Below, in pieces: positions 6,378 through 61,106 of a stretch of DNA of 64,000 bases. The notes below the pieces were generated by a model that saw only the letters and a list, made by a program, of their open reading frames with translations, was not told the origin of the DNA and searched no databases. This stretch comes from Candidatus Parcubacteria bacterium. Its GTDB lineage: Bacteria > Patescibacteriota > Patescibacteriia > UBA1558 > GWA2-36-10. How positions within the stretch are numbered: position 1 is the first letter of the stretch; each line of letters opens with the position of its first letter. Made by a program: the position numbers and the translations under genes. The stretch is from positions 24,394 to 88,393 of the forward strand of contig JABHSK010000001.1 in the NCBI GenBank assembly GCA_018669975.1, written 5' to 3'.

Positions 6378-8447
6378 TTAATTCTCTAGTTCAAAATCAT
6401 TGACTTCTTCCCAGTCATTTTCGTTTAAGACTACAATACCCTCATAAGAAATTACGTATAAGTAATCATTAAGGTAAAGGGCTCTTTCTACATTATATTT
6501 ATCTATAGCCTTAACCATTTTAATCTTGTCATCTTCATATGAGAAGACATAACCACCTTTACCGCCAGGCATAAAGAAAATTTCATGCTTAGTGTCTAAT
6601 AAAAATGCATGATGATCATATAAAACGTCTGAACTATAGTCACTGAGTGTATATTTATCTATTTCTTTGGGGTCACTTGGGTCAGATACATCAAAATAGG
6701 AAATTTTTACATTGCCACCCTCTTTGCCGATACCCAAAATTTTATCTTTAGTTATTGGATGTAAATATGAAGAATATCCAGGGATTTTAAGTTCGCCTGT
6801 TTTCTTTGGATTTTTTGGATCGGACAAATCTAAAACATAAAAAGGATCTGTACGCCTGAAAGTAACTAAATACCCTTTATCTTGAACAAAGCGGGCAGAA
6901 TAGATTTTTTCAGTTAATCCCATATCAATCACTTCACCAGTAATTTTCATATCTTTATTGAGAACATAGACATCGTTAGCGTTTTCCTGACTAGAAAATC
7001 CCCCAGTATCTCCGACGGTAGTGGCAATTCTTAAATGCCCCTCATACTCATCTAGAGAAAACTGATTAAGTGGGTGTCCTGGAACAAGCCCATTGGCTTT
7101 TATATCTAAATCATCTATGTCGATACGGACAATTTCAGTAGCAAAGAAATCTCTTTTGTGGTTATCAAAATAATCTGTCATACGATTTTCCATTTCATTT
7201 TCTATGCGTAGAGCTTCATCGTTATCAAGAGAACCCAACCACTCTTCTACCAAGATTCCCATTTCCATCATCTTACTTTCATTACTTATGTCATAAGAAG
7301 ATATTTTTTCTAGACGTTGATAAATACTAACGGGCATCAAATCTTTAGATCCCTCTCTGAAAAAACCCATTGCAATATCAAAATAGCTAGCGTCGTTTTG
7401 GTAGGTTATATATAAAGAGTCAGCTGACATGTATACAACTGATGCGTATGAAGAACCAATAAATGATATTGTGTCTTTAACTTCCCCAGAATCAACCTCT
7501 AGACTCATGCTAACAAAAGTAGAATCTACTGGTAATGGCTTGTGTGGATGATAAATATCTACACAACCTATATTGACGTCTGTTAATGGAGAAATTGGAC
7601 ATGGTGAGTATCTGTTTATTCTATTTCGTGTAACTAAATAGATTTTATCGTCATAAAGACGTGCTGTTACCAAATAAGTATCGTCCTCTAGTTTAGTGGA
7701 CCATTTTTTGTCTGGTGCACTTGGATCAGATACGTCATAGGCTACTATATTTTTCCCAGAAAAAATAACTAGAGTATCTTCATGCAAAAGCATGTTCCCA
7801 GTCTCATCTATAGTTGCTTCTAACTCTAAATCAGCTGGTGGCCAAGCGTTGATAATATTTGTTTTAGGCGCCATATAATTTGGACTTGGATCACCTGGCA
7901 TACCTCTAACCATTCCATCCACCTCAATAAATATTGGCGTATCCATTGGATAATAACCTCCTTGTCTAGAAAAATATATTTCTTCACCATCAGTCTTAAC
8001 TATATCTGGTTCATCTATACCTACTACCTGAACATTGGTCTCAGAATATCGATCAACTCCTCCTCCAAAACTAGTACTTTTTGCACCTAGATTCACGGCT
8101 TGCATGTCACTCACACCCCAGTCGTCAACTGATGGTGCAGCTTCCATCACTGCTCGGCTATTCATCATACCACTACCTAGCATCAAATCATCTGTTAAGG
8201 CTAAATAATTTTTAAACTCTTCCTCCGATTCAAAAGCTTTAATATCACTTGAATTTTGTTGGAAAACATTTTTGACAGGATTGAATATTTCTTTAATTGT
8301 GTTATTTCCACCTGGTTGATAACTATTTCTAATAATTAAAGACAGACTTACCGCAAAAACTATTATCAACAGGATAATTGATAGTGATGCGCTGCCGAAA
8401 TTACCAAAAAAATTTTTGTTTTTTTTCTTAGTAGTTTTCTTCTTCAT
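6378..8447 (-). CDS. Membrane-anchored secreted protein, probably a beta-propeller domain protein of unknown function.
   Basis: N-terminal TM helix followed by a long extracytoplasmic region rich in beta-strand-like repeats (YLVT.., YVLDLSDP, YFDVSDP). Confidence 0.3.
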   Translation of the reverse strand: MKKKTTKKKNKNFFGNFGSASLSIILLIIVFAVSLSLIIRNSYQPGGNNTIKEIFNPVKNVFQQNSSDIKAFESEEEFKNYLALTDDLMLGSGMMNSRAVMEAAPSVDDWGVSDMQAVNLGAKSTSFGGGVDRYSETNVQVVGIDEPDIVKTDGEEIYFSRQGGYYPMDTPIFIEVDGMVRGMPGDPSPNYMAPKTNIINAWPPADLELEATIDETGNMLLHEDTLVIFSGKNIVAYDVSDPSAPDKKWSTKLEDDTYLVTARLYDDKIYLVTRNRINRYSPCPISPLTDVNIGCVDIYHPHKPLPVDSTFVSMSLEVDSGEVKDTISFIGSSYASVVYMSADSLYITYQNDASYFDIAMGFFREGSKDLMPVSIYQRLEKISSYDISNESKMMEMGILVEEWLGSLDNDEALRIENEMENRMTDYFDNHKRDFFATEIVRIDIDDLDIKANGLVPGHPLNQFSLDEYEGHLRIATTVGDTGGFSSQENANDVYVLNKDMKITGEVIDMGLTEKIYSARFVQDKGYLVTFRRTDPFYVLDLSDPKNPKKTGELKIPGYSSYLHPITKDKILGIGKEGGNVKISYFDVSDPSDPKEIDKYTLSDYSSDVLYDHHAFLLDTKHEIFFMPGGKGGYVFSYEDDKIKMVKAIDKYNVERALYLNDYLYVISYEGIVVLNENDWEEVNDFELEN

Positions 8448-15362: not shown

Positions 15363-15436
15363 TGGCTCGGGGACAGGGGCTCGAACCCCGATTGCCTGGA
15401 CCAGAACCAGGTGTCCTACCATTAGACGATCCCCGA
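15363..15436 (-). tRNA. tRNA-Gln (anticodon CUG).
   Basis: The reverse complement folds as a cloverleaf. Acceptor stem TCGGGGA/TCCCCGA, anticodon loop TTCTGGT, T-loop GGTTCGAGCCCC, encoded CCA. Confidence 0.85.
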
Positions 15437-32144: not shown

Positions 32145-32477
32145 AAATTGACTAAGATGATCGCCTCACCTTTGGTGAGGAGGAAAGTCCGAACACCATA
32201 AAAAGGGTAGTTGGTAACGCCAACCGTCCTGAGAGAAATCGAAGGATAGGACAAGTGCAACAGAAAGTATACCGCCTGCAAAGGTAAGGGTGAAAATGTG
32301 GGGTAAGAGCCCACACGTTTATGTGGTGACACATAGAATGAGGTAAACTTCTACCTGGTGAAAGACTAAGTAGGTTTCGTAATGCTACGAAACGGGTAAG
32401 TCGCTTGAGCTTATAAGCAATTGTAAGCCTAGATAGATGATCATCCTTAGACAGAATTCGGCTTATGAGGTCAATTT
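32145..32477 (+). ncRNA. rnpB: RNase P RNA, bacterial type A.
   Basis: Universal motifs GGAGGAAAGUCCG, GGUAACGCC, AGUGCAACAGAAAG, GGUAAGGGUGAAA.GUGGGGUAAGAGCCCAC, GCUUGAGC, CCUAGAUAGAUGA and ACAGAAUUCGGCUUAU. A P1 helix forms between aaattgac and gtcaattt. Confidence 0.9.
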
Positions 32478-32571
32478 AGACCTTTTTAGATACCCAAAAA
32501 TCTGTTTGACATCAATAAATATCTATGACAATATATTTAAAAGTTATTGTACACTAAAAAAGGAGAAATAA

Positions 32572-53361: not shown

Positions 53362-53501
53362 AGCTTTAAAATACCATAAATCAGCTTTTTTTTCAATCTA
53401 TGCCTAGTATTTTAAACAAATAAAAAAAGGGGCGAGATTTCTCTCGTCCCCCTGTTGATTTGAGCTTGTTTCACCTAATGGTGATTCAAACTACTGGGCA
53501 G

Positions 53502-54497
53502 CTACTTGCCACCCTTGCCGTTGAGGTTCATGAGCCAACCGGACCCGTCGGGCATGATATTGGCCGGCAAGGAGCCGTTCCACTTCTCAGCCGCGATCTT
53601 CTGGGCCTCGGCCTGGATCTTCTGGATATCCAGCTCACGGACCATGATGGCCGCGTCCTGTGCCCGAGCAAACTCCTCGGCCGCTTTACGTGAAGCAGTA
53701 GCCGTGGCTACGGTCTGCTTGTTGAGCTCATCCTGTGCCAGCTTATTCTGAGCTGCAGTCTGGACGCTGAGTTCAGCCAGGAACCGGTTGTTGATACCGG
53801 TCTGGATCTCCTCGTCCTCGTAGATCAGCCCCTCGGCGTAACCAAGGTTGTCGATAGTAATACCGGTCTCCTTGAAATGCTCACGAGTAGCGGCGTAGAC
53901 GCGATCAAAGATCTCGGCTTTGGCACCGCGACCGTCAACCAACTCCAGGGAGCCGAACTCCCGAGAGAGAATCGAGGTGACGTAACCACGCACGTTCTCA
54001 TCGACCACAGCCGACAAAGGCTTACCGGCGTACCAGTACAAGAAAGTCGCCGCGTCGTCCTCACGAACGAAGGAGGTGATATTGACGCCGATGGCGAAAC
54101 CGATGGACTCCTTGGACTCGACATGGATGGCTTCGTTGGCATTCGAGGTGCCGCTGGCGCTATCCTGCGTCCATTCACGAGTAACGGGTTTGCGATCAAC
54201 CTTGATCACGCGCACCGTCGGAATCCATTCAAAATTCCAACTGCGACGACCATTCTTCCTCTTACGCAGAGGAATAGTGACTCGCTTGGCCGCGACCTTG
54301 GCGTCCTCCAGGAAATCCACGGACATGAACTTGCCCTGGGTATCCATGTTGGCGCCTTCCATCGGCACCACGAAAGCAGTTTCGTTGGTGTCGATCTCTT
54401 CGACCACTTCGACTTCGGCCGGACCCCTGCAGCCAGTAAAGGCAAACATGGCGATCAGGCCAACGACGATCAGAGACAGGTACTTGAAATTCTTCAT
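53502..54497 (-). CDS. SPFH/band-7 (stomatin/flotillin-like) domain lipoprotein; high-GC gene.
   Basis: Lipobox AFTGC. The SPFH core (GFAIGVNITSFVRED...VRGYVTSILSREFG...ETGITIDNLGY) is followed by an Ala/Gln-rich coiled coil. SD GAGGAGG. About 57% GC. Confidence 0.6.
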   Translation of the reverse strand: MKNFKYLSLIVVGLIAMFAFTGCRGPAEVEVVEEIDTNETAFVVPMEGANMDTQGKFMSVDFLEDAKVAAKRVTIPLRKRKNGRRSWNFEWIPTVRVIKVDRKPVTREWTQDSASGTSNANEAIHVESKESIGFAIGVNITSFVREDDAATFLYWYAGKPLSAVVDENVRGYVTSILSREFGSLELVDGRGAKAEIFDRVYAATREHFKETGITIDNLGYAEGLIYEDEEIQTGINNRFLAELSVQTAAQNKLAQDELNKQTVATATASRKAAEEFARAQDAAIMVRELDIQKIQAEAQKIAAEKWNGSLPANIMPDGSGWLMNLNGKGGK

Positions 54498-54587
54498 TCT
54501 GTTTCCTCCTCAAGAGGTTCTGAAAGGTTTGAAACGGTTTTGAAACACGATATTCGTGAACAAATATACTAGCAGAGAAAAATAGAA

Positions 54588-54887
54588 CTACTCGTTACTA
54601 TCCGGGGCACTGTTGTACCTACCCAACTTGACCACATACGGAATCCAGGTCAAACCCAGCAGAATAAATCCTGCCCAGTTGATCATGCGTGGGATGGCAT
54701 GCAGTGCGACAGCGCGGCCGGCGACATAGTCGACATCACTGTTGTTGAGCTGCTTGACCGCAACTCCGGCCTCGATGGGACCCTGCGAAGCATTGTAGAC
54801 CTGAATGGTCACAATCCACAGAATCACAAAGATAATTGTGAAAATCATCCTGGCCTTGAAATTGGGCCTACCGATCATCTTACTCAT
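54588..54887 (-). CDS. Small two-TM membrane protein co-transcribed upstream of the SPFH gene (NfeD-position partner).
   Basis: The start is placed at the internal ATG (MSKMIGRP...) because SD AAGGAGG lies 6 nt upstream. Two hydrophobic helices. Confidence 0.5.
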   Translation of the reverse strand: MSKMIGRPNFKARMIFTIIFVILWIVTIQVYNASQGPIEAGVAVKQLNNSDVDYVAGRAVALHAIPRMINWAGFILLGLTWIPYVVKLGRYNSAPDSNE

Positions 54888-55102
54888 GTTTTGCCTCCTT
54901 AATGGCAAATGGTGATTGATTGGGAAACAACGATTTTACCGAATCTATTTTAAATCCTTGCGTTCAAGGCAGTAAAAAAATATACACGATAATAACAGAC
55001 TACATTAGCATAATACCTTGATTTTGTCAAGTATTAAGCTAAAAACCTTAAAAAAATAGGTAAATAAAAAGGACTCCAATTTGGAGCCCCTAATCTGATA
55101 GT

Positions 55103-55741
55103 TTAGCTATCAAGACTAAAGCTTTTCTCTGGCATACCAGGACAAGTGCCTCGCGGACCGAGAGTAGCCATAAAAACAAGGTTGCTCTGCCAGCTAATAT
55201 CACCCAATTCGGAAGCTATTTCCATAGCCATGGGAAGCAAATCAGCCTCTGGCAACACTGACAAAGTGATATGTGGTACAAACGTATCCATGGTCAATGG
55301 ATTACCCCATTTGGCCAAGTTTTTACGCCGAGCAGCACCTATATCAACTTCGCCTGTTAGACAGCCGGAATGTAAGCCAGTGATAAAATCCTGACGAAGT
55401 TCATTGATATCTTTGACCAGTTGGCGATGAATTCCCAACAACGCATCAGTCATATTTACATTCCAAAAAATAGCATTACCAGGATACTCACTGACACCAC
55501 TAAGGGTTAATTCGAGAGGCTTTTTACCCCAAAATGTTCTTTCCATGACAGAATCAACCGCAACTATATTTTCTACTGGAAAAGCAAATTGATGAATAGT
55601 AATGTGCGGAATAGCACTTTCCTCACTGAGGACTAAATCACTACCATGGGCAGCAATTTTTCTACTAACATCAATGGCTATTTGCCTGATTTCTTCAGGC
55701 GGAATAATCACTATGTTGCAGCTTAAAACTCTGGGAAACAT
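55103..55741 (-). CDS. 2H-phosphoesterase superfamily protein (LigT / 2'-5' RNA ligase / cyclic-phosphodiesterase-like).
   Basis: Two H-x-T/S-x motifs (HITIHQ and HITLSV) spaced as in LigT; SD GAGGTG. Confidence 0.6.
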   Translation of the reverse strand: MFPRVLSCNIVIIPPEEIRQIAIDVSRKIAAHGSDLVLSEESAIPHITIHQFAFPVENIVAVDSVMERTFWGKKPLELTLSGVSEYPGNAIFWNVNMTDALLGIHRQLVKDINELRQDFITGLHSGCLTGEVDIGAARRKNLAKWGNPLTMDTFVPHITLSVLPEADLLPMAMEIASELGDISWQSNLVFMATLGPRGTCPGMPEKSFSLDS

Positions 55742-55895
55742 GAGCCACCTCTTTCTTGTAGGGTTTAAGGTTCAGAAAAAATACATATTAAATTAACATA
55801 AAATACTTATTTATGTCAATGAGCATTGACAAATCATGAAACATGTGTTAGTTTCAAAATGTTTACAATTGAATATCTAACAATGAAGCAATGAA

Positions 55896-56007
55896 CGACT
55901 GTCTATATTTGGACGCTTGGATAGTCGGGAGCTAGTAGCGTAACCGGCATTGGCAATAAATTTAATTTGCTTATTTTGTCGGAGACGCCTACCTTAGGTG
56001 TTTTTTT
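55896..56007 (+). ncRNA. Structured RNA element, copy 1: conserved 51-nt core flanked by a covarying 5-bp helix, then an intrinsic terminator. Candidate riboswitch or sRNA.
   Basis: The core at 55901-55951 is identical to copy 2 except for a 5-nt block. Helix cgact(55896-900)/agtcg(55923-27). Terminator hairpin 55984-56002 plus T7. Confidence 0.5.
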
Positions 56008-56051
56008 AGTATAAGTACCTTATAAAATAAGTAAAATGATGAGGTGTTGAA

Positions 56052-56160
56052 CCATAGTCTATATTTGGACGCTTGGATTATGGGGAGCTAGTAGCGTAAC
56101 CGGCATTAAGCTGGTTTTAGGTACAAACAAAACACCTCATTTTTCGAAGGTGTTTTTTGA
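56052..56160 (+). ncRNA. Structured RNA element, copy 2: same core plus a P1/terminator switching platform.
   Basis: Core 56057-56107. Helix ccata(56052-56)/tatgg(56079-83). The stretch gaggtgtt (56041-48) is complementary to aacacctc (56131-38). That same stretch also pairs with aggtgtt (56148-54), which is followed by a T-run. Confidence 0.5.
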
Positions 56161-56184: not shown

Positions 56185-56625
56185 TTGGCTAGAATCGCTG
56201 TTTTTGATACGACCTATACTTCTATACGAACCATCTATTATGCCCTAGAGGGTGAAGGACATCAAGTAGTAACTAATGTTTTCCCAGAAAAAGTTTATGG
56301 GAAATTAGTTATGAAAATGGTAACTGACCCCCTTAGTTTGGTGACTAAAATTTTGACCCCCAGACTGGTTGATGGACAAGTCGTAAGACCTATCCCTGAT
56401 GTTTTCATCATAGATTTTCTTAATCTAGATGGTGAAAAAATAGCCAGCATACTCAAGCAAATACATAGTACTAGATCTGTACCAGTAATTGCCTTGAGTC
56501 ATAAAGGGAAAAATATAGATCGTCAAAAGTTACTTCAACTCTACGGCACTCACTATATTCCTAAACCATTTAATGTGTGGAATGTGGTTGATCACGTGGA
56601 AACTTTCCTAGGTGTCACTTGCTAG
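56185..56625 (+). CDS. Standalone receiver (REC/CheY-like) domain protein.
   Basis: TTG start with SD GGAGGTG. Beta3 acceptor Asp (VFIIDF), beta4 Ser (IALSH), beta5 Lys (IPKPF). Confidence 0.5.
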   Translation: MARIAVFDTTYTSIRTIYYALEGEGHQVVTNVFPEKVYGKLVMKMVTDPLSLVTKILTPRLVDGQVVRPIPDVFIIDFLNLDGEKIASILKQIHSTRSVPVIALSHKGKNIDRQKLLQLYGTHYIPKPFNVWNVVDHVETFLGVTC

Positions 56626-56667
56626 TGGCTGGGGGGGGGAACTAAAACCTAGGAAAGGAGGCACATA

Positions 56668-56733
56668 ATGGAAATTATGACGATCGTCATGGGTCTGTCC
56701 CTGATCGATCTCTTTTGGTGGCTGAGGAAATAA
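56668..56733 (+). CDS. 21-aa hydrophobic peptide MEIMTIVMGLSLIDLFWWLRK (type I toxin-like or small membrane peptide).
   Basis: Strong SD AAGGAGG 7 nt upstream. Single TM-length hydrophobic stretch with a basic C-terminus. A paralog lies at 56934-56999. Confidence 0.45.
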   Translation: MEIMTIVMGLSLIDLFWWLRK

Positions 56734-56835
56734 TCTCAGCAAATCGTTAATGATGTCTAGAATAGAAGTTGAAACTATCAATATCTGAGTAGCATCATTC
56801 GGATGCTACCAATCGCCTGTCTATCGACAGGCCGA

Positions 56836-56878
56836 GGGACTCGTCACTGCATAATTCCCCCCAGTGCATACGAGTCCC
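56836..56878 (+). other. Conserved compound hairpin downstream of peptide 1 (copy A).
   Basis: gggactcgtcactgc...cagtgcatacgagtccc. A 13-nt block GACTCGTCACTGC is shared with copy B. Confidence 0.5.
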
Positions 56879-56933
56879 TTTCGATATTTACTGGAGGATG
56901 CTAATCGCTTATATTGAAAGTGAGGTGAAAACT

Positions 56934-56999
56934 ATGGCTTTCGAGGTTATTCTCATCGCTATTGGCGTTGCGGATATCTTCTGGTGGCTGCGTAAGTAG
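56934..56999 (+). CDS. 21-aa hydrophobic peptide MAFEVILIAIGVADIFWWLRK (paralog).
   Basis: SD GAGGTGA. Shares the C-terminal D[LI]FWWLRK with the first peptide. Followed by a conserved hairpin plus T7 terminator. Confidence 0.45.
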   Translation: MAFEVILIAIGVADIFWWLRK

Positions 57000-57068
57000 C
57001 TACCAAGATAGCAACTAGTATCTTCAATTAATATTTATACAGATAGTGCCGCCCGGGTACTATTGTCA

Positions 57069-57117
57069 GAGACTCGTCACTGCCCATTTCCTCCAGTGCA
57101 TACGGGTCTCTTTTTTT
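57069..57117 (+). terminator. Conserved compound hairpin (copy B) plus T7: intrinsic terminator after peptide 2.
   Basis: gagactcgtcactgc...cagtgcatacgggtctc followed by ttttttt. Confidence 0.6.
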
Positions 57118-57156
57118 AAAACAAAAAATCGGATATTACTACCCGATTTTTATAAA

Positions 57157-57921: not shown

Positions 57922-58065
57922 AGTTTAAAACATTAATTTATTAATACATGTATTTTAACATTTTTTTGACATAAATTAAAATACTTAGATAATATTGACT
58001 AAATTAATAAATCATACTAATATGCATGGTCGTATTTGGAACCTTAAAACTCAAGGAGGAAAAAG

Positions 58066-58704
58066 ATGAGTCCTGAGAGGATATCAGTAATAATTCAACA
58101 AAAGATTGAAGCCTATGATCCCAGTGGAAATCTTGACCACACTGCTCGCTTGATTCTTGCCCTAATGTCTCTTAGACACTCCCGAACTAAATTACATGTC
58201 GAACGTGTAGCCCTGATGGCTGAAGAAGTGGCCTCTGATATGGGTAAAGATGCTCGGCAAGCTTTTTTTAGCGGACTACTGCATGACATCGGCAAGCTAG
58301 TCTTGCCCTACCACCTATTTGCTGATCAATCAATCACTGATGATGAATTTTCTGAAATTACCAGCCACGCTGCAGCCGGACACAAAGTCCTAGAACCATT
58401 CCATCTCTATACCGCGCTAGTAGCTGGCATTCATCATCGTGCTCAAGACCGTGGCTACGGTCTAACACTAACAGACTTCCCAGAAGACATGCCTTTGTCG
58501 CAGGTCAAGAAAGTTCTCAATATTGCCGTCATAGTCGGCGTCTGTGATTTTATTGATGCCTGGCAAAACCGTGGTGACACCCTCCGTGATGGACGTAAAA
58601 AAACAGACCTTGATTTACGCAGTCTGCTTCTGGAAAAATATCCCGATGATAGCCAAGTTGTTGACTTGGCCCTAGTAGCTGCGGACAAAGTCCGTACCAT
58701 CTGA
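58066..58704 (+). CDS. HD-domain phosphohydrolase, HD-GYP-like (divergent: HDIGK ... HHRAQDRGYG).
   Basis: HD motif LLHDIGKLVLPYHL and a second metal-binding block GIHHRAQDRGYG, which resembles the HHExxDGxGYP block of c-di-GMP HD-GYP phosphodiesterases. SD AAGGAGG. About 50% GC. Confidence 0.5.
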   Translation: MSPERISVIIQQKIEAYDPSGNLDHTARLILALMSLRHSRTKLHVERVALMAEEVASDMGKDARQAFFSGLLHDIGKLVLPYHLFADQSITDDEFSEITSHAAAGHKVLEPFHLYTALVAGIHHRAQDRGYGLTLTDFPEDMPLSQVKKVLNIAVIVGVCDFIDAWQNRGDTLRDGRKKTDLDLRSLLLEKYPDDSQVVDLALVAADKVRTI

Positions 58705-58710
58705 TATATG

Positions 58711-58738
58711 GACCTACTCTCTGAGTGGGTCTTTTTTT
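58711..58738 (+). terminator. Intrinsic terminator of the HD-GYP-like gene (gacctactc tct gagtgggtc plus T7).
   Basis: 9-bp stem with one G·U pair and a U-tract. Confidence 0.65.
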
Positions 58739-58863
58739 ATAAAATAAAAAGGACTGACAAGGTCAGTCCCGTATAATCGCTAATCACCAAAAATTTTCAC
58801 ATAAGGTCTTATTGTCAATTAAATAAAAAATAAAAAACTGAGCTTTAGGCTCAGATTTTTTGA

Positions 58864-58873
58864 TGGCTCGGGG
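58864..58873 (-). other. Orphan 10-nt copy of the tRNA-Gln 3' end (…CCCCGAGCCA), a possible recombination or attachment-site remnant.
   Basis: tggctcgggg is identical to the 3'-terminal 10 nt of both tRNA-Gln genes. No complete cloverleaf can be drawn. Confidence 0.35.
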
Positions 58874-58975
58874 CGCTGGACTATTGTCCAGCATCTTAGG
58901 TCGCTCCTATCGGATCATTGTTTGTGGTTTTGAACCAAAAATAAAAACCCGAACAAAAGTTCAGATTCTTATTTT

Positions 58976-59049
58976 TGGCTCGGGGACAGGGGCTCGAACC
59001 CCGATTGCCTGGACCAAAACCAGGTGTCCTACCATTAGACGATCCCCGA
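58976..59049 (-). tRNA. tRNA-Gln (anticodon UUG). Identical to the copy at 15363-15436 except for anticodon position 34.
   Basis: Same 74-nt sequence with ccaGaacc changed to ccaAaacc on the plus strand, giving anticodon loop TTTTGGT. Confidence 0.85.
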
Positions 59050-59158
59050 ACAAGGAAAATACGCAACAATAATACTATATTTTACTACTTATGTCAACTA
59101 TATAAAATTAAATTTCCCCCGCTGGATTAGAACCACACGAGGGAAATATTTACGGAGC

Positions 59159-59434
59159 CTAGCCCCGAAGTTGGCGCCTTGCCCTCTCCAGATCAGCTGC
59201 CCGCTGCGCCCTTAATTCGTCCCTTCTAAGGTCGAATTGCTCCCTCGAAGGAAGGAGGTGCGTAGTGGGTAGCTCTGGAAGAGAACGACACGCTTCCGGA
59301 AGAATAGGCCTTGACCCTCTTGGGTCAGGAAGCACTCTACGCACTTCCGGGAGCCTAGGAGACTTTTCTGACAAGCCTCTAAGCTGCTGCCTAGCTTCCG
59401 AAAAACTAGCAATGAACCTTGACCACCAAGCCAT
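59159..59434 (-). CDS. Putative 91-aa Arg/Leu/Pro-rich ORF in a GC-rich spacer. A real protein and a non-coding transcript cannot be told apart.
   Basis: Upstream TTGACA, 17-nt spacer, TTATAT promoter. SD AAAGGAGG 4 nt before the ATG. Downstream hairpin (atttccc/gggaaat). The encoded sequence is low-complexity. Confidence 0.25.
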   Translation of the reverse strand: MAWWSRFIASFSEARQQLRGLSEKSPRLPEVRRVLPDPRGSRPILPEACRSLPELPTTHLLPSREQFDLRRDELRAQRAADLERARRQLRG

Positions 59435-59600
59435 GTTGCCTCCTTTAAATATTTATCAACTACTTGGGAATTTGATCAGCATCATATATAAACATATTGC
59501 CTAATCTTTGTCAATGGTTATTGCCTTTTAAAATTACTGTGTTAAGCTGTAAAATGTTAGTCCCCAACCGACAATGTACTTTAAAAGAAAGGATTAAGTT

Positions 59601-60947
59601 ATGTGGAAAAAAGGCGATGTATTAGTGGAGGGTAAAACCAAAAGAATCTTCGATGCAGAAGCTACTCACACCGATACCAAGCACTCGGGTCATCCTGTAA
59701 TAGTAGAAAGTAAGCCGGATATCACGGCTTTCGATGATCCCACAAAAACCAAACAAATTGAGGCCAAGGCAGCCTTTGCCACCTCTACAACCTGCCGAGT
59801 GTTTGAACTATTAAAAGCTGCTGGTATTCCAGTAGCTTACTATCAGCAAGTCTCCCCTACTGAATTTCTAGCTGAACAATGTACTATGATTCCGCTAGAA
59901 ATGGTGGCTAGGCGATATGCAGTAGGTAGTTATCTCAAACGTCATCCAGAACTAGTTTGTAAAGAAGACGAGCAACCGCATCGTTTTCACAAATTAGTTT
60001 GTGAATTTTTCCTGAAAACTACCCGCGGTGAATTGATTCTGCCAGATGGAACTCGCCTAGTCGAAGGTCTAAAACCAGAGGCTGGTGAAGAAGATCCTTT
60101 TATCGCCAATCCAATGGCTATGAACTGGAAACTTTCTCATCCTAAGTTACCCGCCTGGGTAGCAGAAGCCGATCTAAATATGAGCGTCAATCCCAATGCC
60201 ATTCTTCCTGGAACTCTAGGTAGCTCCAAAGAGCGCACCCACCAGATAGTAGATTACCTACAGCGTGTCTTCTTAGTTCTAGAAGGTGCCTGGACTACTC
60301 TGGGTCTACGATTGATCGATATGAAGATCGAATTCGGCATAGACTCTGCTGGTCAACTACGTGTAGCTGATGTCATTGACAATGACAGTTGGCGTCTACG
60401 CACCCATGACTGGGAAGAACTCAGTAAGCAGGCTTTCCGCGATGGCGAAAGCTTGGATGAGGTCGAGCTCAAATACGGAACAGTGGCTGGACTAGTTGAA
60501 AGATTCCGGATTCCTAACCAGGCACTTATCTGCTGGCGTGGATCACTCAGTGATGATATCAAGGGTCCATCAACATCTACCATTCCTGGTATCACTATCG
60601 ATTATGTAACCATGTCTGGACACAAGTCCACTCAAGCATGCCTAATCGAACTGGAAAGAATCATGGGTAAATACCCTGACGGTGGCGTCATAGTGGTCAA
60701 GGTCGGTCGAAGTAATGGTCTAGGACCAATCCTAGCCGCTCACACCACCTGGCCTGTCATCGCCGTCCCCGCTACTATGGATTCTTTTCCTGCTGACGCT
60801 TGGAGTAGCATCCGCATGCCCTCTCATGTTCCTTTAGCAACAGTTTGGCCAGAAAAAAATGCCATCGAATTGGCTCTCAATATTCTGGCACGAACAAACC
60901 CATTGGTATATGCATTGCGCCAACGGGAAATTGAAGATCTAGATTAA
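59601..60947 (+). CDS. Bifunctional PurC-PurE fusion (SAICAR synthetase N-terminal, AIR carboxylase-like C-terminal; PAICS-like architecture).
   Basis: N-terminus: GKTKRIFD, MIPLEMVARRYAVGSYLKR, LIDMKIEFGID (PurC). C-terminus: GSLSDD, SGHKST, GLGPILAAHTTWPVIAVP (PurE-like). About 50% GC. Confidence 0.7.
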   Translation: MWKKGDVLVEGKTKRIFDAEATHTDTKHSGHPVIVESKPDITAFDDPTKTKQIEAKAAFATSTTCRVFELLKAAGIPVAYYQQVSPTEFLAEQCTMIPLEMVARRYAVGSYLKRHPELVCKEDEQPHRFHKLVCEFFLKTTRGELILPDGTRLVEGLKPEAGEEDPFIANPMAMNWKLSHPKLPAWVAEADLNMSVNPNAILPGTLGSSKERTHQIVDYLQRVFLVLEGAWTTLGLRLIDMKIEFGIDSAGQLRVADVIDNDSWRLRTHDWEELSKQAFRDGESLDEVELKYGTVAGLVERFRIPNQALICWRGSLSDDIKGPSTSTIPGITIDYVTMSGHKSTQACLIELERIMGKYPDGGVIVVKVGRSNGLGPILAAHTTWPVIAVPATMDSFPADAWSSIRMPSHVPLATVWPEKNAIELALNILARTNPLVYALRQREIEDLD

Positions 60948-61106
60948 ATAGGTCATCAAGACCATCCCCTCGGGGATGGGTTTTTATTAATAAAAAACCC
61001 GCCAAGGAAAGGACCTGCTTTGAAAAGAGCCGAGTATCCGAACTAGTGTCCGGCGGTCTTTCATTAGCAATGATCACAGTCTCAGCGGGCAATCCCTATA
61101 AAGGAG

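What the first reader, a model, noticed from the sequence alone, without database searches (positions are those of the whole stretch)
58860..59050. Second tRNA-Gln copy differing only at the anticodon wobble position (UUG versus CUG), plus an orphan tRNA 3'-end fragment
The 74-nt tRNA at 58976-59049 is identical to the tRNA-Gln(CUG) at 15363-15436 except for G to A at position 34, which gives a UUG anticodon. One hundred nt away (58864-58873) is an isolated 10-nt copy of the tRNA 3' end, also preceded by a T-run. This pattern suggests either isoacceptor birth by duplication and anticodon mutation, or site-specific integration and excision activity at tRNA-Gln at the edge of the GC-rich segment.
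Basis: seen in the sequence. Interest (0 to 1): 0.55.

Follow-up and report, generated by a model that had tools for sequence, protein, structure and literature searches.

The report
Mini mobile cassette behind tRNA-Gln
The "orphan" tRNA fragment is the tail of a 112-base structured cassette inserted directly after a glutamine tRNA gene; it belongs to an apparently undescribed family that collects behind tRNA genes in ultra-small (Patescibacteria) bacteria and is related to cassettes carrying a tiny GIY-YIG nuclease gene, whereas the two tRNA-Gln genes themselves are an ordinary isoacceptor pair.

Summary
ARAGORN and Rfam call two 74-nt tRNA-Gln genes, 15363-15436 (CUG) and 58976-59049 (UUG). 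They are 73/74 identical and differ only at the wobble base. The 10-mer at 58864-58873 is an exact third copy of their 3' end (about 0.01 expected per window). It is not an orphan. It is the last 10 nt of a 112-nt cassette that starts directly after the CCA of tRNA-Gln(UUG). In a related Parcubacteria genome the same 32-nt terminator abuts the tRNA directly, which is an empty site. The cassette belongs to a family found behind tRNA-Gln genes across Patescibacteria: 4 of 5 unbiased loci, and 21 of 23 motif hits. Units occur singly or in tandem arrays. Each ends in a covarying hairpin plus a copy of the tRNA's last ~10 nt. No Rfam family and no phage contig matches. One longer version carries an 86-aa GIY-YIG nuclease gene, and 9 of 9 homologues examined sit directly after the CCA of a tRNA or tmRNA gene. 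Best reading: an ORF-less derivative of a nuclease cassette that targets the CCA end and is co-transcribed with the tRNA. The insertion is shown; the enzyme and mechanism are inferred. The GC-rich segment is not bounded by these repeats.

The parts
15363..15436 (-). tRNA-Gln(CUG), CCA encoded. No cassette behind it in this genome; a terminator follows directly.
   Evidence: ARAGORN; Rfam RF00005 at 55.6 bits; sequence. The orthologous locus L025 in a relative carries a 93-nt type-A unit.
59069..59097 (-). Sigma-70-like promoter TTGACA-17-TATTAT (11/12), about 20 nt upstream of the tRNA-Gln(UUG) 5' end.
   Evidence: Consensus scan; a similar TTGACA box lies upstream of tRNA-Gln in the related loci.
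58976..59049 (-). tRNA-Gln(UUG), CCA encoded, with U1-A72 and G73. Identical to the CUG copy except at the wobble base (+ strand 59017).
   Evidence: ARAGORN; Rfam at 57.1 bits; comparison.
58976..58985 (-). Proximal copy of the 10-nt repeat CCCCGAGCCA (the true tRNA 3' end).
58864..58975 (-). 112-nt ORF-less cassette (type A, subtype A2): 102 nt of insert plus the 10-nt terminal repeat. It begins immediately after the tRNA's CCA.
   Evidence: Empty site in L048/L049, where the same 32-nt terminator flank abuts the tRNA. Family alignment. Covariance model R1 gives 71.7 bits at 58864-58941. Fold z-score is -3.8.
58932..58981 (-). Long sense-strand hairpin (about 23 bp) pairing the tRNA's terminal GAGCCA and the first 17 nt of the cassette with GUUCGGGUUUUUAUUUUUGGUUC. 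This is the alternative to P1.
   Evidence: -30.7 kcal/mol on the sense strand versus -12.2 on the antisense strand. The same hairpin, with compensating changes, is present in L030.
58932..58937 (-). P1 5' strand UGGUUC, complementary to the terminal GAGCCA.
   Evidence: RNAalifold and pair counts: GG(C/U)UC with GAGCC is paired in 14/14 sequences, with only U.G variants.
58905..58914 (-). P2 variable internal hairpin (UCC-GAUA-GGA here; longer in relatives).
58875..58892 (-). P3 hairpin GCUGGAC-AAUA-GUCCAGC. The flanks and loop are invariant and two stem positions covary.
   Evidence: GC/AU/UA/CG at one pair and GC/AU at the next; 0/500 shuffles reach the observed covariation.
58864..58873 (-). 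It is the right end of the cassette and serves as the insertion target for further units in other genomes.
   Evidence: Units are inserted after such copies in L022 versus L033. The copy tracks the tRNA acceptor variant in L016 and L032.
58838..58854 (.). Bidirectional intrinsic terminator that ends the tRNA-plus-cassette transcription unit (and the HD gene on the + strand).
   Evidence: An identical 32-nt sequence abuts the tRNA in L048/L049.

Best explanation
The two tRNA-Gln genes are a normal UUG/CUG isoacceptor pair. The 10-nt 'orphan' is the right-hand end of a 112-nt cassette (58864-58975, minus strand) inserted exactly at the CCA end of tRNA-Gln(UUG). It is an ORF-less, non-autonomous member of a family of orientation-specific cassettes that accumulate behind tRNA-Gln genes in Patescibacteria, singly or as tandem arrays. 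Each unit starts right after a ...GAGCCA end and carries an internal (U)GGCUC stretch complementary to that end. Each unit finishes with an invariant hairpin module followed by its own copy of the tRNA's last ~10 nt, which recreates the target for the next insertion. These points are shown: the insertion and empty-site polymorphism, the family, its structure, its restriction to tRNA-Gln 3' ends, and its presence inside the tRNA transcription unit. The following is inferred. The units derive from, and are or were mobilised by, cassettes encoding a small single-domain GIY-YIG nuclease that in CPR bacteria sit directly after the CCA of tRNA and tmRNA genes. Recognition probably works on one DNA strand through hairpins and base pairing with the tRNA 3' end, in the manner of Ssn/NTS or IS200/IS605-type elements. 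The window copy is a passenger that is co-transcribed with the tRNA.
For: Empty versus filled site: L048/L049 have the identical 32-nt terminator flank joined directly to the tRNA 3' end, whereas the window has it joined to the distal 10-mer. A second independent pair: a 50-nt unit is present in L022 and absent in orthologous L033, inserted exactly after a unit's CCCCGAGCCA. Presence is reciprocal between species: the relative has a unit at the CUG locus and none at UUG, and the window is the reverse. Family: 4 of 5 loci fetched only by the tRNA sequence have a downstream copy of the 3' end. Of 23 loci fetched by the hairpin motif, 21 have tRNA-Gln directly upstream; one is uninformative and one lies behind another unit-like end. 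Tandem arrays of different unit types occur. Model R1 finds no copy anywhere else in 250 kb. Structure: P1 and P3 are paired in 99.4% of cells, with 13 double-change cells and 0/500 shuffles reaching that. Wobble pairs occur only in the sense orientation, and the hairpin energy is strongly strand-asymmetric. The terminal copy follows the tRNA acceptor variant CUCCGAG in L016 and L032, and in L016 the internal complement changes too. Recent copying: the units in L021 (UUG) and L033 (CUG) are 94/94 identical while their tRNAs are 68/74 identical. Nuclease link: the L032 unit carries an 86-aa GIY-YIG ORF (PF01541, 68.6 bits) between the leader and a 35-nt type-A end that is 89-100% identical to ORF-less units. 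In 9 of 9 homologue loci with enough upstream sequence, the ORF lies 100-270 nt downstream of a tRNA (Gln, Asn x3, Met x2, Phe, Lys) or tmRNA on the same strand, and a conserved leader hairpin begins right after CCA. Leader motifs are shared with ORF-less units. ORF-less units ending in copies of tRNA-Met 3' ends exist in L045. Precedent: single-domain GIY-YIG Ssn nucleases cut ssDNA next to strand-specific hairpin repeats that flank their genes in an IS-like layout (PMC11893778).
Against: No GIY-YIG gene lies in the 64-kb window (tblastn), and I could not examine the rest of the genome. The link between type-A units and a GIY-YIG ORF rests on one locus (L032), plus shared leader motifs and the L051 cassette. 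The published Ssn-related motif regex matches none of these loci, and membership of the CPR proteins in cd10448 could not be tested. A GIY-YIG nuclease alone does not explain strand joining or the terminal repeat, whose length varies by unit type (8 to 23 nt). The strong conservation and covariation of P1 and P3 would equally fit a selected RNA function. No excision product, circle or cleavage has been observed.
Confidence: 0.6

Rival explanations
1. The cassette is primarily a functional small RNA made from the tRNA-Gln transcript. It would be a structured RNA whose 3' end copies the tRNA-Gln acceptor strand plus CCA. It might act as a decoy or regulator of tRNA-Gln 3' processing, CCA metabolism or the Glu-tRNAGln amidation route, or as a stabilising 3' end for the cassette transcript. 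Its spread among loci would be secondary.
For: It lies between the tRNA and the only terminator, behind a strong promoter. P1 and P3 covary, and the wobble pairs are sense-strand specific. The loop and flanks are invariant across lineages. The terminal 10 nt track the tRNA acceptor variant. Fold z-scores are -3.8 and -8.7.
Against: It is present or absent between close relatives and between the two tRNA-Gln loci of one genome. Unit types are heterogeneous and occur in tandem arrays of variable content. In P1 the terminal CCA is base-paired, leaving a 0-1 nt overhang, which is unlike an acceptor end. One unit carries a nuclease ORF. Strand-specific hairpins are also expected for elements acting on single-stranded DNA. 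No Rfam family matches.
Confidence: 0.2
2. The repeat pair is an attL/attR scar of a classical integrase-borne island or prophage that integrated into the 3' end of tRNA-Gln and was later almost completely deleted.
For: A direct repeat of the tRNA 3' end with an intact tRNA is the textbook signature of such integration. L014 shows a 23-nt repeat running from the T-loop to CCA, 184 nt downstream, with a substituted tRNA end that lacks CCA. Gene order around the tRNA differs between the window and its relative.
Against: The insert is 102 nt and has no ORF. The same ~80-110-nt units, with conserved ends and covarying structure, recur in many lineages and in tandem. No hit for the unit or the tRNA 3' end was found in 2.9 million viral contigs, apart from one chance match. 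Repeated independent decay to the same small size is implausible.
Confidence: 0.1
3. The element is a decayed tandem duplicate of tRNA-Gln (for example a former UUG-CUG tandem pair), retaining only the 5' and 3' ends.
For: A 9-nt match to the tRNA 5' end plus its upstream flank (TTGTTCGGG) lies about 85 nt before the 3'-end copy, in tRNA order.
Against: ARAGORN, even at relaxed thresholds, and Rfam do not call a tRNA there. The interior has its own conserved, covarying non-tRNA structure. The GUUCGGG stretch is accounted for by the leader hairpin. Related units lack it.
Confidence: 0.03

Closest known systems
Integrase-mediated genomic islands and prophages at tRNA/tmRNA 3' ends (attL/attR repeats of the tRNA 3' segment)
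   Same: The insert sits at the tRNA 3' end, the tRNA stays intact, the insert is bounded by a direct repeat of the tRNA's terminal nucleotides, tandem accretion occurs at one tRNA, and tmRNA is also a target of the related ORF-bearing cassettes.
   Different: The insert is only 50-200 nt and no integrase is associated with it. Units keep a conserved hairpin architecture and an internal complement of the target. No attP-bearing virus was found.
Ssn single-domain GIY-YIG ssDNA nucleases with NTS/SRM hairpin repeats (Chenal et al. 2025, PMC11893778)
   Same: A GIY-YIG-only protein of about 90 aa whose gene is flanked by strand-specific hairpin elements in an IS-like layout, with ORF-less hairpin elements outnumbering the genes.
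   Different: The published SRM pattern is not matched. The elements here are confined to the CCA end of tRNA/tmRNA genes instead of being dispersed in hundreds of copies. They end in a copy of the host tRNA's 3' end. cd10448 membership was not tested, and that paper does not mention tRNA or CPR.
IS200/IS605 elements and their ORF-less derivatives (PATEs; REP/RAYT)
   Same: There are no terminal inverted repeats. Subterminal hairpins are strand-specific. Insertion occurs in one orientation, immediately 3' of a specific target sequence. The right end resembles the target, so arrays can form. Small non-autonomous derivatives exist.
   Different: No Y1 HUH transposase was seen. The target and repeat are about 10 nt of a tRNA instead of 4-5 nt. 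The associated protein is a GIY-YIG nuclease.
Free-standing GIY-YIG homing endonuclease genes in tRNA clusters (phage T4 SegB, PMC2330249)
   Same: A GIY-YIG gene is placed among or next to tRNA genes and spreads by cutting near tRNA sequence.
   Different: Seg proteins have extra DNA-binding domains and leave no duplicated tRNA ends or ORF-less structured units. They are found in phages, not in a cellular genome.
Integron cassette arrays (attC hairpins)
   Same: A one-orientation array of heterogeneous short cassettes sits behind a fixed site and promoter. Each cassette ends in a strand-specific hairpin recombination site whose two ends pair.
   Different: No IntI integrase and no GTTRRRY/RYYYAAC core are present. 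The cassettes are mostly ORF-less and under 120 nt.

Membership tests
tRNA (Rfam RF00005), for 15363-15436 and 58976-59049 | Cloverleaf covariance-model score above gathering and a Gln anticodon | tested here: met
   55.6 and 57.1 bits against a gathering score of 29. ARAGORN calls Gln CTG and TTG.
tRNA or tRNA pseudogene, for the element 58864-58975 | Detectable cloverleaf or similarity to tRNA beyond the ends | tested here: not met
   No call by ARAGORN or by Rfam at E<=1. Only the last 10 nt and a 9-nt 5' motif match.
Integrase-borne island/prophage at a tRNA gene | Direct repeat of the tRNA 3' end flanking the insert, with an empty site in relatives | tested here: met
   The 10-nt repeat is exact. 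Empty site in L048/L049.
Integrase-borne island/prophage at a tRNA gene | Recombinase gene inside the insert | tested here: not met
   The insert is 102 nt with no ORF. Units in other loci are 50-200 nt.
Integrase-borne island/prophage at a tRNA gene | Free element (phage or plasmid) carrying the matching attP | tested here: not met
   IMG/VR scans for the P3 module and for the tRNA 3' end gave one chance hit and none, respectively.
Ssn / SRM system (GIY-YIG cd10448) | Single-domain ~90-aa GIY-YIG protein encoded next to the repeats | tested here: inconclusive
   Met in L032 and 9 further loci (PF01541 at 61-69 bits). No such ORF lies in the 64-kb window, and the rest of the genome was not available.
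Ssn / SRM system (GIY-YIG cd10448) | Repeats match the SRM pattern HGTCWYN(0-2)YYVSBRHN(0-5)WNVSBRGN(0-2)RNCYNB | tested here: not met
   0 matches in the window and in 10 GIY-YIG loci.
Ssn / SRM system (GIY-YIG cd10448) | Protein belongs to CDD cd10448; site-specific cleavage of ssDNA only | not testable with these tools
   No CDD library and no SsnA sequence were available. The nearest solved structures are UPF0213 proteins 1ywl and 1zg2, at E 2e-7 and 5e-6.
IS200/IS605-type elements and PATEs | Strand-specific subterminal hairpins, no terminal inverted repeats, insertion in one orientation 3' of a fixed target | tested here: met
   (structure and strand asymmetry). (insertion exactly after ...GAGCCA).
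IS200/IS605-type elements and PATEs | Y1 HUH transposase (TnpA) in autonomous copies | not tested
   The only ORF seen inside a unit is the GIY-YIG one. No systematic search for TnpA was run.
Integron cassettes | attC core sites RYYYAAC / GTTRRRY at cassette boundaries | tested here: not met
   The boundaries read ...CCCCGAGCCA|AACGAAC... or |AAAATAAG..., with no GTTRRRY core.
Any curated RNA family (Rfam 15) | Covariance-model match at E<=1 | tested here: not met
   Only spurious sub-threshold hits overlap the unit in the window. No unit is hit in seven related loci.

The most novel reading that the evidence does not exclude
Patescibacteria harbour a previously undescribed class of mobile cassettes that home to the CCA end of tRNA and tmRNA genes. 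Autonomous forms encode only a ~90-aa GIY-YIG nuclease behind a leader hairpin that base-pairs with the CCA end. Non-autonomous forms (such as window 58864-58975) carry a guide-like complement of the tRNA 3' end and terminate in a hairpin plus a copy of that end. In this way they regenerate their own target and build integron-like arrays that are transcribed from the tRNA promoter.
Probability: 0.4. Interest if true: 0.8.

Novelty: new variant of a known kind. Interest (0 to 1): 0.62.

Why it matters
tRNA 3' ends are the classic landing sites for integrase-borne islands. This locus shows a different occupant: tiny structured cassettes without an integrase that copy the tRNA's own terminus and stack up behind tRNA-Gln across a whole bacterial superphylum. 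They are linked to the smallest kind of GIY-YIG nuclease. If the link holds, three things follow. It would give the recently discovered ssDNA-specific Ssn-type nucleases a defined natural target, the CCA end of tRNA and tmRNA genes. It would explain many unannotated stretches next to tRNA genes in CPR genomes, and perhaps the short ORF-less and GIY-YIG insertions reported in CPR rRNA genes (PMC11270868). It would also offer a simple hairpin-guided targeting system to test. For annotation, the finding warns that a partial tRNA end near a tRNA is not necessarily an integrase att scar.

Tried and rejected
- **ARAGORN on 58700-59200.** Relaxed runs, including intron mode, gave only low-quality overlapping calls and no tRNA for the element.
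- **Rfam.** I ran gathering and E<=1 thresholds on the window, and E<=1 on seven related loci. Nothing but tRNAs was found.
- **Viral contig scans.** The P3 module gave one hit, which was a non-palindromic chance match inside a GC-rich ORF. The tRNA T-arm/3' end gave none.
- **SRM regex from the Ssn paper.** Zero hits.
- **Supplementary files of that paper.** None are held, so SsnA could not be compared.
- **NCBIfam and PHROGs on the GIY-YIG protein.** Only weak homing-endonuclease similarity, E 1e-5 to 3e-4.
- **Literature searches.** Searches combining GIY-YIG, tRNA, tmRNA, Patescibacteria/CPR, direct repeat and homing found no description of this arrangement in the held library. Two searches failed on term syntax.
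- **Strain comparison.** Nine contigs carrying the identical HD protein are 100% identical over 58700-59600 and gave no information.
- **One-mismatch copies of the 10-mer** (23934, 42739, 56626). These lie in coding or unrelated sequence.
- **Co-conversion of the tRNA T-loop with the insertion.** Filled loci carry several different T-loops, so there is no consistent link.
- **CUG locus as an indel.** It is orthologous to L025, but the sequence right after CCA is replaced, so it is not a clean indel.
- **MAFFT on the empty/filled pair.** It misplaced the gap, so I used an exact-flank comparison instead.
Full report
**1. Observation**

ARAGORN finds exactly two tRNA genes in the 64-kb window, both on the minus strand: tRNA-Gln(CUG) at 15363-15436 and tRNA-Gln(UUG) at 58976-59049. 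Rfam's tRNA model scores them 55.6 and 57.1 bits. The 74-nt sequences differ only at the first anticodon base, + strand 15404 G versus 59017 A. Outside the mature tRNA the two loci share nothing except promoter-like TTGACA boxes.

The 10-mer TGGCTCGGGG (the reverse complement of CCCCGAGCCA, the tRNA 3' end with encoded CCA) occurs three times in the window: once in each tRNA and once at 58864-58873, all in the same orientation. From the base composition I estimate about 0.014 exact matches per window, so the third copy, 102 nt from a tRNA-Gln, is not chance.

**2. Local anatomy**

On the minus strand the order is as follows:
- a strong sigma-70-like promoter, TTGACA-17-TATTAT, at 59097-59069;
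- the tRNA;
- 102 nt with no terminator;
- the 10-nt copy;
- a bidirectional intrinsic terminator at 58854-58838.

The stretch 58864-58957 folds into a closed multibranch structure with z = -3.8. An alternative hairpin of about 23 bp joins the tRNA's own GAGCCA and trailer to the first half of the insert. That hairpin is worth -30.7 kcal/mol on the sense strand but only -12.2 on the antisense strand, because it is rich in G.U pairs. The region is not a tRNA by ARAGORN or Rfam, and it matches no Rfam family at E<=1.

**3. Organism and close strains**

The flanking proteins are catalogued as Candidatus Parcubacteria bacterium (MBT6690790-92) on an 844.5-kb contig. Nine other contigs with the identical HD-domain protein are 100% identical across 58700-59600. 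The element is therefore fixed in this population.

**4. Empty site**

A related species was located through its CTP synthase, which clusters with the window's at >=90% identity (P0123; loci L048 and L049). It has tRNA-Gln(UUG) with the same terminator. The 32 nt AAAAAACTGAGCTTTAGGCTCAGATTTTTTGA abut the tRNA 3' end directly there. In the window the same 32 nt abut the distal 10-mer. The window thus carries a 112-nt insertion (102 nt plus one repeat copy) relative to that genome, with boundaries defined by the 10-nt repeat.

The reverse holds at the other locus. L025 is orthologous to the window's CUG locus, with flanking coding sequence about 85% identical. It has a 93-nt unit behind the tRNA, whereas the window has only a terminator there.

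**5. A family**

A scan of 185,579 species-representative genomes for the internal part of the tRNA returned five Patescibacteria loci. In four of them the tRNA is followed by a short insert that ends in a copy of the tRNA 3' end:
- L010 and L011 have the same kind of unit as the window.
- L012 (Komeilibacteria) has a different 67-nt unit ending GGGUCCCCGAGCCA.
- L014 has a 184-nt insert followed by a 23-nt copy.
- L013 (Nomurabacteria) has none.

A metagenome scan for the hairpin module AAGATGCTGNNCAATAGNNCAGCG returned 23 loci. Twenty have a complete tRNA-Gln (UUG or CUG) directly upstream and one has a truncated tRNA-Gln at the contig end. One contig starts inside the unit. One unit (L030) follows another ...GCGAGCCA end.

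Units always start at the nucleotide after CCA. Many loci carry two or three units in tandem, of at least four sequence types, each ending in (C/U)CCGAGCCA. A covariance model of the conserved module (R1) finds these sites and nothing convincing elsewhere in 250 kb of window plus loci. The window copy scores 71.7 bits; it was in the training set.

**6. Structure**

Sixteen distinct type-A units align. RNAalifold and explicit pair counting support the following helices:
- P1, in which GG(C/U)UC pairs with the GAGCC of the terminal copy (14/14 paired, with only U.G variants);
- variable internal hairpins;
- P3, GCUGNNC-AAUA-GNNCAGC, whose two variable pairs take GC, AU, UA, CG and GC, AU.

Overall 99.4% of cells are paired, there are 13 double-change cells, and 0 of 500 shuffles reach the observed covariation. 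Slid controls fall to 22-39% paired. The loop and flanks of P3 (UAAGAUG......CGC) are invariant. Wobble pairs are found in the sense orientation only.

Where the tRNA acceptor is UCGGAGA/UCUCCGA (L016, L032), the unit ends in CUCCGAGCCA. In L016 the internal complement reads GGUUCGGA. This is a single instance of three-way covariation, suggestive only.

**7. Evidence of movement**

- L022 and L033 are orthologous CUG loci. L022 has an extra 50-nt type-B unit inserted exactly after the CCCCGAGCCA of the type-A unit. This shows that the terminal copy itself serves as a target.
- L021 (UUG) and L033 (CUG) carry tRNAs that are 68/74 identical but units that are 94/94 identical. The unit was therefore copied between paralogous loci more recently than the tRNAs diverged.
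- L019 has a 20-nt perfect palindrome inserted inside the terminal copy, between CCCC and GAGCCA.

**8. Link to a nuclease**

In L032 (860-kb Komeilibacteria contig) the tRNA-Gln is followed by a 145-nt leader and an 86-aa ORF. The type-A end follows immediately, with the ORF's TAA stop being the UAA of UAAGAUG. The terminal copy CUCCGAGCCA and a terminator come last.

The ORF is a single GIY-YIG domain (PF01541, 68.6 bits). Its nearest solved structures are UPF0213 proteins, and it shows weak similarity to homing endonucleases. More than 440 homologues at E<=1e-10 were found; those that carry a source name are mostly candidate-phyla (CPR) lineages, with a few from other phyla.

I fetched ten homologue loci. 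Every one with enough upstream sequence (9 of 9, counting L032) has the ORF 100-270 nt downstream of, and co-oriented with, a tRNA or tmRNA gene: Gln, Asn x3, Met x2, Phe, Lys and tmRNA. With roughly 45 tRNA genes per ~900 genes (my estimate), chance adjacency would be about 5% per gene.

In 8 of the 9 the leader begins right after CCA, with T(G/A)NACC...GGTNCATGG. This hairpin includes the CCA and covaries (TGAACC/GGTTCA versus TGTACC/GGTACA). The exception is L041, whose tRNA-Asn lacks an encoded CCA and is followed by two 42-nt tandem repeats.

Leader motifs recur in ORF-less units: 17/17 nt between L016 and L043, and type-D units. L051's cassette is followed by a CGGAGCCA copy and a further unit. 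L045 has ORF-less units ending in 20-nt and 16-nt copies of two tRNA-Met 3' ends. The phenomenon is therefore not limited to tRNA-Gln.

**9. Interpretation**

Shown:
- a precise, polymorphic insertion at the CCA end;
- a conserved, strand-specific architecture;
- target regeneration and arrays;
- co-transcription signals;
- a longer relative with a GIY-YIG gene;
- systematic placement of that gene family at tRNA/tmRNA CCA ends.

Inferred:
- the ORF-less units are non-autonomous derivatives mobilised by such nucleases;
- recognition uses hairpins and base pairing with the tRNA 3' end on one DNA strand.

The closest precedent is the Ssn family. These are ~94-aa GIY-YIG proteins that bind and cut only single-stranded DNA next to strand-specific hairpin repeats flanking their genes. 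Their authors noted the IS200/IS605-like layout (PMC11893778). That paper does not mention tRNA or CPR. Its SRM pattern matches none of the loci here, and I could not test cd10448 membership. How strands are rejoined, and why the terminal copy varies from 8 to 23 nt between unit types, is not explained by a nuclease alone. This is the weakest part of the model.

The main rival is that the unit is kept for an RNA function. The covariation and its place in the tRNA operon would fit that reading. However, the presence/absence pattern, the arrays, the paired CCA and the nuclease-bearing form argue that mobility comes first. The two readings are not exclusive. A classical integrase scar and a decayed tRNA duplicate are unlikely, for the reasons given under the rival explanations.

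**10. The isoacceptor pair and the GC-rich segment**

Both tRNA-Gln loci exist in the related species in the same gene contexts. The exact UUG and CUG sequences occur in distant Patescibacteria. The pair is therefore old and ordinary. The relative's UUG copy differs from the window's at two T-loop positions, while the probable CUG copy of the same relative equals the window's. Gene conversion between the window's two copies is thus possible but unproven.

The GC-rich patches comprise ORFs at 53502-54497 (56.5% GC), 54588-54908, HD 58066-58704, purC-purE 59601-60947, and the non-coding 59111-59600 (46%), against 36% overall. They are not bounded by the repeat. Most are syntenic in the relative. 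Only the segment upstream of the tRNA differs: purC-purE in the window versus a 385-aa ORF in the relative, with the tRNA-bearing segment inverted.

**11. Novelty**

Nothing in Rfam 15 matches. IMG/VR gave no match to the unit. The held literature describes neither these units nor the tRNA/tmRNA placement of small GIY-YIG genes. A report of short ORF-less and GIY-YIG-bearing insertions in CPR rRNA genes (PMC11270868) may be related. I classify the element as a new variant of known kinds: tRNA-end-targeted mobile DNA, and hairpin-repeat elements associated with GIY-YIG.

Noticed in passing
window 55875-56114 (+), 56185-56625 (+): Two tandem c-di-GMP-II riboswitch aptamers (RF01786, 67.3 and 62.4 bits) sit directly upstream of a 146-aa receiver-like ORF. 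An HD-domain ORF with weak HDOD/HD_5 hits lies nearby at 58066-58704.
   Followed up: no
window ~56640-57120: Downstream of the receiver-like ORF, on the + strand, are two tiny hydrophobic ORFs (about 21-22 aa, both ending FWWLRK*) with GGAGG-type ribosome-binding sites. Each is followed by a ~44-nt long hairpin repeat (minus-strand copies at 57110-57068 and 56877-56835).
   Followed up: no
window 59111-59600: A 46% GC non-coding stretch lies between the tRNA-Gln promoter and the purC-purE fusion ORF. It folds with z = -3.8 on the + strand and has no Rfam match. JGI called a 91-aa ORF with no Pfam hit on the minus strand. The stretch is absent from the related genome L048.
   Followed up: partly
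window 53400-55800 and 58000-61000: ORFs much richer in GC (42-57%) than the 36% genome: 53502-54497, 54588-54908, LigT-like 55103-55741, HD 58066-58704, and the purC-purE fusion 59601-60947. Most are syntenic in a related species. purC-purE is replaced there by a 385-aa ORF, and the tRNA-bearing segment is inverted.
   Followed up: partly
window 32145-32481 (+): Bacterial RNase P RNA class A, 250.8 bits.
   Followed up: no
L011 204-770 (+); L030 168-515 (+): A reverse-transcriptase-like ORF (YADD motif) lies beside one tRNA-Gln unit array, and an ORF that looks by eye like a four-helix-bundle (Avd-like) protein lies beside another. Both arrays share the tail motif AATCGTGATAGnTTATTTACGCACGAGACGCGTA. 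This may indicate diversity-generating retroelements next to the arrays.
   Followed up: no
L019 ~7930-7960 (-): A perfect 20-nt palindrome, CCTGCCTGCCGGCAGGCAGG, is inserted inside the terminal tRNA-end copy of a unit, between CCCC and GAGCCA.
   Followed up: no
L041 1815-1900 (+): Behind a tRNA-Asn that lacks an encoded CCA are two tandem 42-nt repeats, each containing GCGGAGCCA (a copy of the tRNA 3' end with CCA added). They lie upstream of a GIY-YIG ORF.
   Followed up: no
L052 847-1767 (+): A GIY-YIG cassette with a multi-hairpin leader starts directly after the CCA of a tmRNA gene.
   Followed up: partly
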